A DNA stretch of 64,000 nt from assembly GCA_965219415.1 (NCBI GenBank), contig CBDCNP010000002.1, positions 3,552,001-3,616,000 on the forward strand, given 5' to 3'. A program made the position numbers and the translations under genes. Positions 28,604 through 31,100 of this stretch are shown here, piece by piece. The DNA is from Candidatus Marinacidobacterales bacterium (GTDB lineage: Bacteria; Acidobacteriota; Vicinamibacteria; Marinacidobacterales; DATDRI01). Every line of letters begins with the position of its first letter. Within the stretch, counting starts at the first letter, position 1. Under the pieces are notes generated by a model that worked only from the letters and a program-made list of their open reading frames with translations, was not told the origin of the DNA and ran no database searches.

Positions 28604-29155
28604 TCATGGCTGCGACTCCCTGGATTGCGAATCGCCATCGTCGACCTCTGGTTCAGCAGTCTCCGGCTCAGCAACCTCTGGTTCAGCAGCCTCTGGCTCA
28701 GCAGCCTCTGGCTCAGCAGCCTCCGGTTCAGCAGGAGCGGAGCGTTCCTCGTTGACCGTCATTTGGATCGACCCCTTGAAGATGGCTCCTTCGGCAACCG
28801 CGATGCGTGCGGCGCGGAGATTTCCGAACACCTTTCCGGTGCGGGTGAGCTCAACTTTGTCGCTTGCCGTGCAGTCGCCCTCTAGCTTGCCACGTATCGA
28901 GACGTTGGCCGCCTCGACCTTCGCTTTCACTCGACCAGCTTCTTCGATTACAACCATTCCGCTGCTCTTGATCTTGCCTTCCACCCGCCCTTCGATCTGG
29001 AGCACCTCGCTGGTGTTCAACTCACCGCTGATGATCGTTTTCGCTCCGATCAACGTTTGCGGCGCGACCGATGGTGATTCGTTCTGGGCCGGAACACCGC
29101 GGGGACCGGTCACGACGTTGAGTTTTTGCGGTTCCGATTTTCCAAACAATCCCAC
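28604..29155 (-). CDS. Bactofilin (polymer-forming cytoskeletal protein) with an acidic AEPE(A/V/T) repeat tail
   Basis: TLIGAKTIISGEL..IEGRVEGKI..IAVAEGAIFKG; about six 15-bp tandem units at about 28650-28735. Confidence 0.85.
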   Translation of the reverse strand: MGLFGKSEPQKLNVVTGPRGVPAQNESPSVAPQTLIGAKTIISGELNTSEVLQIEGRVEGKIKSSGMVVIEEAGRVKAKVEAANVSIRGKLEGDCTASDKVELTRTGKVFGNLRAARIAVAEGAIFKGSIQMTVNEERSAPAEPEAAEPEAAEPEAAEPEVAEPETAEPEVDDGDSQSRESQP

Positions 29156-29351
29156 GTTACCTCCTGGAGTGGCTCACACTGCAGCGTTCAAGAAGGGTTA
29201 GATCGCCGCGGCGATGAAGGTCGTCCTCTTCTCTCATACCTCATCATAAGGGTGCTTCCGCCATCAAGTGATGGAATGGACTCCTCCACTGACATAGACG
29301 GCATCGATGTGCCAAAGTCAGTCGAATACGCATCGAAAAGGAGGAGTCCGA

Positions 29352-30383
29352 ATGAAAGATACGACAATCGCTGTGGATCTTGCAAAGAACGTCTTCGAGA
29401 TTGCCATCTCGGGAGAAGCGGGGAAGGTGTCCAAGCAACTCCGTGTGAGTCGACCCAAATTGGTGTCGTTCTTTGCCAAACAGAGCGCTGCCACCGTGCT
29501 TCTCGAAGCCTGCGGCTCGGCTCACTTCTGGGCAAGGACGTTCCGAAGGTTGGGACACGACGTCGTCCTGCTCCCACCTCACCTCGTGAGGCCGTATCGA
29601 CGCGGGAGCAAGAACGACCGCGCCGACACGAAGGCGTTGCTCGAGGCCTACAGGAACGAGGAGCTTCTTCCCGTACCCATCAAGTCCGTGCACCAGCACA
29701 CCCTCGCTGCGCTCCATCGCCTGCGCTCAGGATGGCTCTCCACACGGACCGCACGCATCAATGCCGTACGCGGGCTCCTGCGCGAACTCGGATTCATCAT
29801 CCCAAAGGGCGCTCACTTCGTCGTGCCCGCCCTCTTCGAACTCGTCGAAGACGCTGATTCTGATTTGCCCGACGTGCTCCGTTCGCATCTCCGTGATGCC
29901 TGCTCCGAGATTCGAGAACTCAAGGACAAGTGCGCTAGCATCGAGCACGAGCTCAAGGCGCTCACCAAGCAGCTTCCTGAAGTCCAACGACTTCTCGCCA
30001 TTCCCGGCATCGGACTTCTGGCCGCGACCGCCATCGTGGGCTTCGTCGGCGATCTTCGCCGCTTCCCATCGGGGCGCCGCTTCTCGAGCTACCTCGGCCT
30101 AGTTCCCAAGGAAAACTCCAGTGGCGACATTCGCCGCCTCGGACGCATCACCAAGCGTGGCGACTCCTACCTCCGTATGCTCCTCACCCAGGGCGGGCGC
30201 GCCGTGCTCCGCGCGGCGAACGTCAGCAAGAGCCCGCCCGACAAGCTCCGCGCCTGGGCTCGGAAGGTCCACCGCTCGCGGGGACACAACAAGGCCGTGA
30301 TTGCTGTCGCCAACAAACTCGCCCGGATCGTCTGGGCCGTCTCCACCCGCGAGAGTGAATTCCAGTCGCCGGTGGCCGCTTAG
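29352..30383 (+). CDS. IS110/IS1111 DEDD recombinase
   Basis: IAVDLAK, LLEACG, KNDRAD, IPGIG, GLVPKENSSG and ITKRG motifs; GGAG RBS upstream. Confidence 0.92.
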   Translation: MKDTTIAVDLAKNVFEIAISGEAGKVSKQLRVSRPKLVSFFAKQSAATVLLEACGSAHFWARTFRRLGHDVVLLPPHLVRPYRRGSKNDRADTKALLEAYRNEELLPVPIKSVHQHTLAALHRLRSGWLSTRTARINAVRGLLRELGFIIPKGAHFVVPALFELVEDADSDLPDVLRSHLRDACSEIRELKDKCASIEHELKALTKQLPEVQRLLAIPGIGLLAATAIVGFVGDLRRFPSGRRFSSYLGLVPKENSSGDIRRLGRITKRGDSYLRMLLTQGGRAVLRAANVSKSPPDKLRAWARKVHRSRGHNKAVIAVANKLARIVWAVSTRESEFQSPVAA

Positions 30384-30439
30384 ATTTAGAGGCTCCACTT
30401 TCGTGTTTTCCTTTTTCCCTTCCAAAAGAGGCTGCGACG

Positions 30440-30620
30440 ATACCCATCCAACTGATGGCGTACCGGTCGGACCGGCGCGGGGTCAAGCCAATAGCAACAC
30501 TGGCCCTAAGAGGTCGTTCAAAGTGATTGGCTCCTCGCGCGCGGATTTTCCATCATGGCCCGGAGCACCCAAGACGCTCCTCACTGAGGCCGAAGATACG
30601 TTTGCAGTCTGACCCACTCG
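30440..30620 (+). ncRNA. Putative bridge/seek RNA of the IS1111 (boundaries approximate)
   Basis: Stem agccaat/attggct encloses TAGCAACACT (reverse complement of the target) and AAGTG; a second loop holds TTCCATCAT and AGATACG, matching the donor junction. Confidence 0.7.
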
Positions 30621-31100
30621 TCACGACGCGATGGATGCGCAGCTTCGATGGAAGATTTATTAAGAAAGGGGCGTGACTAGAAAGAAAGGGGCTTGACTAG
30701 AGGAGTCCAGATATGTTGCTACGCCGCGTTTGAATGCTAATATCAGTTGGCCTGCCTGTGTCGGCGAACGCCATAAATTAAGGATGTCGGCGTGCACACG
30801 AAGATGTCCCTGAACGTCAGGCACCGCGTGGTCAGCCCAGCCGGTATCGCCGAAAGAACTTGCATCTATCCAAATCAGGCCCAAACTCTAGCACGCGAGC
30901 GGGTTACGCGGCAGCCACCAACACTTGATTGCGGAAGCACCTCGTCCTGTGCCAAAACTCGGCCCAGCCGGCATCGACGAAAGAACTGCGCCTCTCGAAA
31001 TCAGGTGCTTCCGCAATTAAGTGTTGGCGGTCAGCCCCTAACCGGTCTGCGTGCTAGAGTTTGAACTAGAATTCCGAAGACACAGTTCTCTCATCGTCAG

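What the first reader, a model, noticed from the sequence alone, without database searches (positions are those of the whole stretch)
29251..30941. IS1111 whose bridge/seek RNA is visibly programmed against the host's own MITE terminus
Seen: the empty target CATCAAG-TG-TTGCTACG exists in the repeat at 476, and here it is split by the IS with TG on both sides (29269-70, 30714-15). In the downstream non-coding region, stem agccaat/attggct (30486-30532) encloses TAGCAACACT, a 10-nt reverse complement of AGTGTTGCTA, followed by AAGTG (left target plus core). A second loop holds TTCCATCAT (30548-56), the reverse complement of the predicted circle junction ATGATGGAA, and AGATACG, close to the right end AGATATG. 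Established: IS110/IS1111 elements use such RNAs, and some IS1111 elements target transposon TIRs. Inference: this is a complete recombinase, RNA, donor and target set with a TG core. It parasitises a multicopy repeat and could drive rearrangements. Empty matching sites remain at about 491, 36991, 39676 and 40638.
Basis: partly seen in the sequence, partly recalled or inferred. Interest (0 to 1): 0.78.

Follow-up and report, generated by a model that had tools for sequence, protein, structure and literature searches.

The report
RNA-guided IS1111-type element targeting transposon ends
This is an active IS1111-type jumping gene whose own small guide RNA matches one spot in the end of another, multicopy transposon family; it is a clear new example of a mechanism described in 2024, not a new mechanism.

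Summary
A 1445-bp IS110-family element of the IS1111 group (window 29271-30715, TG on both sides) splits the end repeat of a 246-bp MITE.

- **Copies:** the genome holds about 30 near-identical copies (99.4-100%). All 33 left junctions and 30 of 31 right junctions lie at the same site, CATCAAG-TG-TTGCTA.
- **Unused sites:** 85 empty ends carry that right half-site. About 350 related ends that differ there (TTGGTG, TTGGCG) hold one insertion in total.
- **The target:** it is one end of a 1.2-kb IS1-like element and of its MITE derivatives.
- **The RNA:** the 332-nt region after the transposase gene encodes a conserved RNA of about 180 nt. 27 of 43 pairs show compensatory changes. A model built from it also finds the matching region of ISPa25.
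- **Target loop:** TAGCAACACT is complementary to AGTGTTGCTA (top strand). AAGTG reads like the left half plus TG.
- **Covariation:** across two sets of relatives (24 and 22 elements) the guides follow each element's own flanks. Three of the four permutation tests gave 0 of 20,000; the fourth gave 116 of 20,000.
- **AGATACG:** this is the family-wide right-end guide with a CG core.
- **TTCCATCAT:** in the consensus fold it sits in a conserved helix, not an open loop.

Verdict: a new member of a known kind (seekRNA or bridge RNA). IS1111 itself sits in a MITE, and IS4321 sits in transposon end repeats.

The parts
29251..29270 (+). Outer 20 bp of the host repeat's end repeat (GGTGCTTCCGCCATCAAG plus TG). 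This is the left target half-site and core.
   Evidence: The same 20 bp, with at most one change, precedes all 33 left junctions in the genome.
29271..30715 (+). The IS1111-group element, 1445 bp, counted with the right-hand TG. Under the convention of Siddiquee et al. (no duplication, one copy of the repeated bases assigned to the left end; passages) it is 29269-30713.
   Evidence: 36 BLAST pieces, comprising 26 full-length copies, 4 more essentially complete and 4 fragments, at 99.4-100% identity.
29277..29286 (+). Left subterminal inverted repeat TGGACTCCTC. It is preceded by the extension ATGGAA (29271-76).
   Evidence: Read. It is the reverse complement of 30700-30709.
29352..30383 (+). 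Transposase gene, 343 aa: DEDD/RuvC-like N-terminal domain plus the IS116/IS110/IS902 C-terminal domain. It carries the GLVPKENSSG motif.
   Evidence: The residues invariant among 16 homologues include E52, D89 and D92, and D9 is nearly invariant.
30441..30624 (+). Conserved structured RNA (seekRNA or bridge RNA) in the non-coding region after the gene.
   Evidence: Model R1 scores 162.7 bits here, though this sequence was used to build the model. Structure: 86.2% of cells paired against 33-49% when the partners are slid, and 27 of 43 pairs with compensatory changes.
30453..30458 (+). TGATGG, the 5' strand of long-range helix P1. It pairs with CCATCA at 30550-55 and has the same letters as the core plus the start of the left end.
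   Evidence: helix 1, 95% paired; 4 of 6 pairs with changes on both sides.
30492..30501 (+). 5' guide of the target loop, TAGCAACACT. It is complementary to the top strand AG-TG-TTGCTA, that is core plus right half-site.
   Evidence: These alignment columns track the right flank in relatives.
30517..30525 (+). 3' guide of the target loop, TTCAAAGTG. AAG-TG matches the left half-site plus core (5 nt, or 7 with one bulged A), so it would pair with the bottom strand.
   Evidence: These columns track the left flank in relatives.
30548..30556 (+). TTCCATCAT, complementary to A-TG-ATGGAA (core plus left end). It is the candidate donor guide for the left end, and part of it lies in helix P1.
   Evidence: The start of the left end is nearly invariant in the family, so covariation cannot test this guide.
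30594..30600 (+). AGATACG, the donor guide for the right end: AGATA plus a CG core.
   Evidence: It covaries with the right end in relatives. Five right-end types (AGATA, ATATA, ATACA, ATACC, ATAGG) are each matched by this guide.
30693..30698 (+). TTGACT, a -35-like box 17 nt before the element's last base. It is a candidate half of a promoter formed only when the two ends are joined in a circle.
   Evidence: TTGAC or TTGnnG holds this position in relatives. No sigma-70-type promoter was found in the linear copy. Function is inferred.
30700..30709 (+). Right subterminal inverted repeat GAGGAGTCCA. It is followed by GATA (30710-13) and TG (30714-15).
30716..30941 (+). The rest of the host MITE: right half-site TTGCTACGCC..., the body, and the far end repeat at 30919-30941 on the minus strand.
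   Evidence: MITEs of about 240-250 bp with these ends recur in the genome.

Best explanation
**What it is.** This is a recently active IS1111-group insertion sequence of the IS110 family.

**How it works (inferred).** Its DEDD transposase is guided by an RNA of about 180 nt encoded after the gene.
- One internal loop of the RNA reads the target. [quoted passage not shown] - A second region reads the element's own joined ends: AGATACG for the right end and TTCCATCAT for the left end.
- The element then inserts in one orientation between CATCAAG-TG and TTGCTA, 20 bp inside an end repeat, adding no bases beyond one TG.

**What the target is.** That end repeat belongs to a 1.2-kb IS1-like element and to its MITE derivatives.

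**Shown here:**
- the anatomy of the element;
- site and orientation specificity in the genome;
- conservation and covariation of the RNA structure;
- covariation of the target guides and of the right-end guide with the flanks and ends of relatives.

**Inferred from published IS1111 and IS621 work:**
- that the RNA is made and binds the transposase;
- that a circle forms with a promoter at its junction;
- the chemistry of strand exchange.
For: **1. Protein.**
- PF01548 (E 6.9e-12) and PF02371 (E 3.2e-24) match.
- NF033542 scores 302.9 bits against a cut-off of 140.
- The protein is 343 aa and carries GLVPKENSSG, which fits the IS1111 motif GL-P----S(t)G quoted.

**2. Layout.**
- The non-coding region is 81 nt before the gene and 332 nt after it.
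- The subterminal inverted repeats are 10 bp.
- Both are IS1111 traits.

**3. Specificity in the genome.**
- All 33 left junctions follow (C/T)ATCAAGTG.
- 30 of 31 right junctions are followed by TTGCTA, and 1 by TTGGCG.
- Ends with right half-site TTGCTA: 30 occupied and 85 empty.
- Other ends: 5 motif hits, of which only 1 is a true junction, against 352 empty. Fisher p = 1.9e-15.

**4. The insertions are independent.**
- Copies of the element are 99.4-100% identical.
- The 16 occupied 'long' host copies carry 13 different 60-nt host haplotypes, with mean identity 0.94.
- Four host types are hit.

**5. RNA structure.**
- 86.2% of cells are paired, against 33-49% when the partners are slid.
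- 27 of 43 pairs have compensatory changes, and 0 of 500 shuffles reach this.
- A set of metagenome sequences gives 91.8% paired, though that alignment was fitted to the model.

**6. Guide-flank covariation.**
- Set 1 (24 non-redundant elements), 5' guide against right flank: longest match 6.83 for an element's own flank, against 3.67 for others' flanks.
- Set 1, 3' guide against left flank: 4.75 against 2.83. Both give 0 of 20,000 permutations.
- Set 2 (22 elements whose 5' guide differs from every guide in the model-building set): 0 of 20,000 and 116 of 20,000.
- Clear single cases: L128, L140, L142, L133, L069, L083.

**7. Order of the guides.** The segment matching the top strand lies 5' of the one matching the bottom strand, as reported for IS1111 seekRNAs.

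**8. Link to a named element.** Model R1 finds the region downstream of the ISPa25 transposase gene at 140.6 bits. Siddiquee et al. predict a seekRNA like that of ISKpn4 in this region of ISPa25.
Against: - No direct evidence of the RNA, of a circle or of transposition. The runs available are assembled contigs only, and none showed a joint between the right and left ends.
- The left-half guide match in this element is short: 5 contiguous nt, or 7 with a bulge.
- AGATACG mismatches this element's own TG at one base.
- CCATCA of the proposed left-end guide is paired within the RNA in the consensus fold. In five relatives it changes together with its RNA partner while the DNA junction stays TG|ATGG. 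Its role as a guide is therefore unproven.
- The register between the 5' guide and the right flank varies by up to 2 nt among relatives.
- Several relatives show only 4-6 nt matches.
- Rfam 15 gave no match near any family's gathering score here.
Confidence: 0.9

Rival explanations
1. Many occupied sites exist because the host repeats transposed or recombined while already carrying the element, not because of repeated RNA-guided insertions. The outer 20 bp of the end repeat remain at the tip after insertion, so the composite might still move.
For: After insertion the host's terminal 20 bp still form the outer end. All copies lie in one repeat superfamily.
Against: - The 16 occupied 'long' copies carry 13 different 60-nt host haplotypes (mean identity 0.94), while copies of the element are 99.4-100% identical.
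- 7 of the 16 occupied 'long' copies and 4 of the 10 occupied MITE-A copies have host haplotypes that also occur empty.
- Four host types are hit: long 17, MITE-A 11, MITE-B 2, and one end of the other type.
Confidence: 0.05
2. The transposase protein, or DNA shape at the end repeat, chooses the site. On this view the complementary RNA segments are coincidence or a relic.
For: No experiment here shows RNA dependence. The left-half match is only 5-7 nt. Some relatives match their flanks poorly.
Against: - The guide columns change together with the flanks in dozens of relatives, while the stems around them are conserved.
- About 350 ends that differ mainly at right half-site positions 4-6 are almost never used.
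- Published experiments show RNA dependence in four IS1111 members (abstract; passages).
Confidence: 0.04
3. A narrower point. TTCCATCAT may not be a guide for the left end. It may be the 3' strand of structural helix P1, with the left end recognised in another way, for instance through the subterminal repeats.
For: - Helix 1 is 95% paired and 4 of its 6 pairs have changes on both sides.
- In five relatives CCATCA becomes CCATGA together with its RNA partner, while the DNA junction stays TG|ATGG.
- Siddiquee et al. say end recognition may differ between the two families.
Against: - The 9-nt complementarity to A-TG-ATGGAA runs beyond the helix (TT pairs with AA).
- Durrant et al. note donor-binding bases in a multiloop in many IS1111 RNAs.
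- The partner guide for the right end clearly covaries with the right end.
Confidence: 0.3

Closest known systems
IS1111-family seekRNA elements (ISEc11, ISPa11, ISKpn4, ISPst6; Siddiquee et al. 2024, PMC11187229)
   Same: - Transposase of 330-350 aa.
- Long non-coding region after the gene.
- Subterminal inverted repeats.
- No target duplication.
- An RNA in which the top-strand match lies 5' of the bottom-strand match and the two overlap in the target.
   Different: - Different target, and a host from the Acidobacteriota.
- The end extensions are 8 and 4 nt, or 6 and 4 plus TG, rather than the usual 7 and 3.
- Nothing has been tested experimentally here.
ISPa25 (IS1111 relatives that insert in integron attC sites)
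   Same: - It is the closest named transposase in the plasmid collection, at 45.9% identity over 99% of the length.
- Its downstream region matches the RNA model at 140.6 bits.
- It has the same TG|ATGGAATGG left junction.
   Different: - In the record seen, ISPa25 sits in an integron cassette array between blaOXA-17 and qacEdelta1.
- The element here targets the end repeat of an IS1-like element.
- The guides differ.
IS621 and IS110-group bridge RNA (Durrant et al. 2024; Hiraizumi et al. 2024)
   Same: Two-part RNA logic: target guides and donor guides each read both strands around a 2-nt core. Distant homology of the C-terminal domain to the IS621 and ISCro4 structures, E about 1e-7 to 1e-8.
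   Different: - In IS621 the RNA lies before the gene and the order of the guides is reversed (abstract).
- The core is CT there and YG here.
IS4321/IS5075 in Tn21-family end repeats, and IS1111 in the Coxiella MITE QMITE2
   Same: An IS1111-family element that inserts at one position and in one orientation inside the end repeat of another transposon, or inside a MITE. 20 of 21 IS1111 copies lie beside QMITE2 (PMC5896051, passages). The Partridge and Hall 2003 title was seen in reference lists.
   Different: - The host element here is an IS1-like IS and its MITEs.
- The numbers are larger: 31 occupied sites, 85 empty cognate sites and about 350 near-cognate ends in one genome.

Membership tests
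IS110 family, IS1111 group | DEDD (RuvC-like) N-terminal domain plus the PF02371 C-terminal domain | tested here: met
   - PF01548 at 45.9 bits and PF02371 at 85.5 bits.
- NF033542 at 302.9 bits against a cut-off of 140.
- D9, E52, D89 and D92 are conserved among 16 homologues; compare D11, E60, D102 and D105 of IS621.
IS110 family, IS1111 group | C-terminal motif GL-P----S(t)G | tested here: met
   GLVPKENSSG is in the translation. The motif is as quoted.
IS110 family, IS1111 group | The longer non-coding region lies downstream of the transposase gene | tested here: met
   81 nt upstream (29271-29351) against 332 nt downstream (30384-30715).
IS110 family, IS1111 group | Subterminal inverted repeats (7-17 bp; usually 11-13 bp) with short asymmetric extensions | tested here: met
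   10-bp perfect repeat at 29277-86 and 30700-09. The extensions are ATGGAA (plus TG) and GATA, slightly longer than the usual 7 and 3.
IS110 family, IS1111 group | Insertion at one sequence and in one orientation, with no real target duplication | tested here: met
   All 33 left and 30 of 31 right junctions are at the same site. Empty sites hold a single TG.
IS110 family, IS1111 group | RNA from the non-coding region with a top-strand match 5' of a bottom-strand match to the target | tested here: met
   TAGCAACACT lies 5' of AAGTG. Both covary with the flanks in relatives. Order as.
IS110 family, IS1111 group | The RNA is expressed and bound by the transposase | not testable with these tools
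   Only assembled contigs of public runs were available.
IS110 family, IS1111 group | A circular intermediate with abutted ends that creates a promoter | tested here: inconclusive
   A conserved TTGAC lies 17 nt from the right end. The -10 half in the left end is weak (TGGAAT, 4 of 6, my reading).
IS1111 elements that target integron attC sites (ISPa25, ISKpn4, ISPst6) | Insertion into attC sites of integron cassettes | tested here: not met
   The target here is the end repeat of an IS1-like element. The RNA scaffold is homologous and the protein is 46% identical. It is therefore a relative with a different guide, not a member by target.

The most novel reading that the evidence does not exclude
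Two conserved features of this RNA clade do not look like simple guides.

**A copy of the left-end sequence.** A 5' copy of the left-end letters (TGATGG) pairs with the proposed left-end guide.

**A fixed disagreement at the first core base.**
- The left-target guide and the right-end guide read CG. The left-end guide reads TG.
- In most relatives the left junction reads TG and the right junction reads CG.
- 10 of 15 empty sites in the genome behind L049 read CG.

**The proposal.** Together these features could form a built-in switch. It would keep the donor guide closed until the circle is present, and it would set the direction of the reaction (insertion or excision). On this reading, a successful 30-copy burst here on a TG target, with the right-end guide left unchanged, would show how much mismatch the switch tolerates.
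Probability: 0.15. Interest if true: 0.6.

Novelty: new member of a known kind. Interest (0 to 1): 0.4.

Why it matters
One genome supplies a natural specificity experiment for an RNA-guided recombinase. It contains about 30 identical elements, 85 unused perfect right half-sites and about 350 near-cognate ends that are almost never used.

It extends the IS1111 seekRNA or bridge-RNA scaffold, previously described mainly in Proteobacteria, to Acidobacteriota. It also links this element by an RNA model to the clade that inserts in integron attC sites.

It is a further case of one mobile element living on the ends of another. That may limit the spread of the IS1-like family and scatters identical 1.4-kb repeats through the chromosome.

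The aligned set of more than 60 natural guide, target and donor triples could help design rules for IS1111-type recombinases.

Tried and rejected
**Searches that found nothing useful.**
- Rfam 15 at E up to 10 over 29000-31200 gave only chance-level hits. The best was mir-1910 at 22.5 bits against a gathering score of 70.
- The sigma-70 promoter scan of 29200-30800 found 0 sites.
- The metagenome scan for closer relatives with other guides (70-90% identity) returned 30 loci, none above 64% identity and no full-length one above 60%. No recent guide switch could be shown.

**Public sequencing runs.**
- All four runs laid were assembled contigs. None showed a joint between the right and left ends.
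- Libraries labelled RNA held contigs of relatives over parts of the gene and parts of the RNA.
- This shows neither expression nor its absence.

**Other RE-like motifs.** Three further such motifs in the genome lacked the donor-loop motif. I did not pursue them.

**Methods that fell short.**
- A first regular-expression parse of the target loop failed for 7 elements. I replaced it with alignment columns.
- In one search the ungapped 'IS identity' figures are spoiled by indels. I did not use them and took the BLAST identities instead.
- The proposed outer stem of the donor region (GCGGA with TTTGC) is weak: 74% paired, with only 3 solid pairs. It also crosses P1, so I left it out of the model.

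**I considered and rejected the idea that the flanking 20 + 9 nt belong to a larger element.** 58 exact contiguous 29-mers exist without the insertion.

**Tools and files not available.**
- Supplements of the papers were not opened. Durrant Supplementary Table 5 and the Siddiquee supplementary figures may already list this RNA clade.

**Papers and how much I saw.**
- PMC11187229: outline, sections 6, 9 and 13, and passages.
- PMC11208160, PMC11208158, PMC13626964 and PMC5896051: passages found by term only.
- All other papers: search listings only.
Full report
**What is there.**
- The sequence reads GGTGCTTCCGCCATCAAG-TG | ATGGAATGGACTCCTCC ... GAGGAGTCCAGATA-TG | TTGCTACGCC.
- Between them lies a 343-aa open reading frame (29352-30383). 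It has the two domains of IS110-family transposases: PF01548 and PF02371, and NF033542 'IS110 family RNA-guided transposase' at 302.9 bits against a cut-off of 140.
- The element shows the IS1111-group traits quoted from Siddiquee et al. and Durrant et al.:
  - a short upstream non-coding region (81 nt) and a long downstream one (332 nt);
  - 10-bp subterminal inverted repeats (29277-86 and 30700-09);
  - a transposase of 330-350 aa;
  - the motif GL-P----SG (GLVPKENSSG).
- By the titles of the nearest public records, the organism is a member of Candidatus Marinacidobacterales, Acidobacteriota.

**Copies and target.**
- The window's genome (8.05 Mb, 3 contigs) gives 36 BLAST pieces: 26 full-length copies, 4 more essentially complete and 4 fragments. 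Sixteen of the full-length copies are 100% identical and the others are at least 99.4% identical.
- All 33 left junctions follow (C/T)ATCAAGTG. Of 31 right junctions with host DNA, 30 are followed by TTGCTA and 1 by TTGGCG.
- The uninterrupted 29-mer GGTGCTTCCGCCATCAAGTGTTGCTACGC occurs 58 times exactly.
- The genome holds about 470 ends of this repeat superfamily.
- Ends with right half-site TTGCTA are occupied 30 times and empty 85 times. All other ends (TTGGTG, TTGGCG, TTGGTA and so on) give 5 motif hits, of which only 1 is a true junction, against 352 empty. Fisher p = 1.9e-15, computed on the conservative table.

**What the host repeat is.**
- The targeted end belongs to a 1.2-kb element; 33 paired elements of 1.1-1.3 kb were found. 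Its 354-aa reading frame resembles IS1-family transposases: NF033558, E 6.3e-23, 81.7 bits, which is below the cut-off of 100.
- The TTGCTACG end is the one downstream of that frame. The other end (AATTAAGTG|TTGGCGGC) is not used.
- MITEs of about 200-250 bp share the same end.
- The copy in the finding is such a MITE: 246 bp without the insertion (29251-70 plus 30716-30941).
- Occupied hosts: 17 of the long type (16 plus 1 variant), 11 MITE-A (10 plus 1 variant), 2 MITE-B, and 1 end of the other type.
- The host sequences next to the insertions differ: 13 haplotypes among the 16 occupied long-type copies that matched the type pattern, with mean identity 0.94. The elements themselves are nearly identical.
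- The insertions are therefore recent and independent, not copies of one composite.

**The RNA.**
- An alignment of the downstream regions of 22 sequences shows a conserved block of about 180 nt. Within it, two short segments change from element to element.
- I placed a hand-built structure on 27 sequences. It consists of a long-range helix P1, a small hairpin, a two-part stem enclosing an internal loop with a hairpin, and a second stem with a hairpin.
- On that alignment the structure gives 86.2% paired cells, against 33-49% when the partners are slid. 27 of 43 pairs have compensatory changes, and 0 of 500 shuffles reach the observed values.
- Seventeen metagenome sequences that were not used to build the model give 91.8% paired. 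That alignment was fitted to the model, so it leans towards the structure.
- The covariance model finds the same RNA after the transposase genes of 36 further loci. One is the region downstream of a gene annotated 'ISPa25 family transposase' in a Pseudomonas plasmid integron: 140.6 bits.
- Siddiquee et al. predict a seekRNA like that of ISKpn4 in this region of ISPa25, and they showed the ISKpn4 RNA experimentally.

**Guides.**
- In this element the 5' side of the internal loop is TAGCAACACT, the reverse complement of AG-TG-TTGCTA. The 3' side ends in AAG-TG directly before the stem.
- Having the top-strand match 5' of the bottom-strand match is the order reported for IS1111 seekRNAs, and is reversed in the IS110 type (abstract).
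- Across relatives the same alignment columns follow each element's own flanks:
  - Set 1 (24 non-redundant elements): the longest match of the 5' guide to the element's own right flank averages 6.83 nt, against 3.67 nt to others' flanks. For the 3' guide and the left flank the figures are 4.75 and 2.83. Both tests give 0 of 20,000 permutations.
  - Set 2 (22 elements with other guides): 0 of 20,000 and 116 of 20,000. Many members of this set share attC-like targets, which raises the background.
  - A third list from metagenomes contains clear cases, such as L128, L140 and L142.
- Not all fit. Several relatives match by only 4-6 nt, and the register of the 5' guide shifts by up to 2 nt.

**Donor side.**
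- AGATACG sits before the closing stem, in the position equivalent to the left-target guide.
- In relatives this segment follows the right end. Five right-end types (AGATA, ATATA, ATACA, ATACC, ATAGG) each have the matching guide.
- Its last two bases are CG in most of the family. They are TG in L140, L143 and the close relatives L034, L059 and L103.
- TTCCATCAT is complementary to A-TG-ATGGAA. In the consensus fold, however, its CCATCA pairs with an upstream TGATGG (helix 1, 95% paired).
- In five relatives both strands of that helix changed together while the DNA junction stayed TG|ATGG.
- Durrant et al. remark that in many IS1111 RNAs the donor-binding bases lie in a multiloop. I keep this segment as a probable but unproven guide.

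**The core dinucleotide.**
- Most relatives read TG at the left junction and CG at the right.
- In the genome behind L049, 10 of 15 empty sites read CACCA-CG-GGCTGCTA. There the TG comes in with the element and the CG stays with the target. This fits the convention of Siddiquee et al., in which there is no duplication and the element begins with one copy of the repeated bases.
- A few elements read CG on both sides (L133, L135, L142) or TG throughout (L140, L143).
- In the window both sides read TG because the target itself has TG, and both target guides read TG.

**Promoter and expression.**
- A TTGACT box lies 17 nt before the right end, and TTGAC is conserved there in relatives.
- No sigma-70-type promoter was found in the linear copy.
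- This fits the published idea of a promoter formed at the circle junction, but it remains an inference.
- I have no evidence on expression; see the entry under Tried and rejected.

**Comparison and verdict.**
- The element meets every sequence-level criterion of the IS1111 group that I could test.
- Its RNA is homologous to that of the relatives that insert in integron attC sites, but the guide and the target differ.
- Both the mechanism and the habit of living in other elements' ends or in MITEs are in print:
  - IS4321/IS5075 in Tn21-family end repeats (title seen in reference lists);
  - IS1111 in the Coxiella MITE QMITE2, 20 of 21 copies.
- My search for IS1111 with MITE, inverted repeat and target returned 5 papers, none on an IS1-like host.
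- The finding is therefore correct and well supported, and it is a new member of a known kind.
- Its value lies in the natural specificity data and in the large set of aligned guide, target and donor triples.

Noticed in passing
G000 genome-wide; window 476, 22681, 28437, 30919, 31004, 36906-42518: A very large repeat superfamily shares the end GGTGCTTCCGC(C/A)AT(C/T)AAGTGTTG, with about 470 ends in 8 Mb. It has several inner variants, for example 91 copies of CATTAAGTG|TTGGTGAG. The element uses only one variant.
   Followed up: partly
L111 (G000:C2:26141-27541), frame 124-1188 on the minus strand: The 1.2-kb IS1-like host element has a 354-aa open frame, but the first ATG, GTG or TTG gives only 254 aa. 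It may use an unusual start or a frameshift, as in IS1. It is only a weak match to IS1 (below the curated cut-off).
   Followed up: no
window 30662-30701: A 20-bp tandem duplication, AAGAAAGGGGC(G/T)TGACTAG(A), doubles the -35-like box. Two copies in this genome (C3:4603982 and C3:4669555) and the relative L032 have only one unit.
   Followed up: no
window 31004-33283 and 40731-41435: This is a neighbourhood rich in insertion sequences. It holds a fragment of a Mutator/IS256-type transposase (31494-32213), an rve_3 integrase-type frame (32234-33283, minus strand) and an IS240-type DDE transposase (40731-41435, minus strand).
   Followed up: partly
Relatives L024-type loci; left and right junctions: In most relatives the left junction reads TG and the right junction reads CG, while empty sites read CG. 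The RNA's left-target and right-end guides read CG and the left-end guide reads TG. The first base of the 'core' therefore differs between donor and target in a conserved way.
   Followed up: partly
L034 and L059 (other Marinacidobacterales genomes): Copies with the same guides sit at sites that match the target only in part (left ...ACGAGTG or ...TTCAAGTG; right CAGCTC... or TAAGCTGCTAGC...). They may be off-target insertions or decayed sites.
   Followed up: no
G000:C3:4738161, C1:326502, C3:3909455: Three further motifs resemble the right end and have other flanks, for example CGGGCTGTTA. They lack the donor-loop motif of this element and may belong to more distant IS1111-type elements in the same genome.
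   Followed up: partly
window 30445-30458: In this element and its close relatives only, CCATC (30445-49) can pair locally with GATGG (30454-58) (minimum-energy fold). That would free the proposed left-end guide from helix P1.
   Followed up: no
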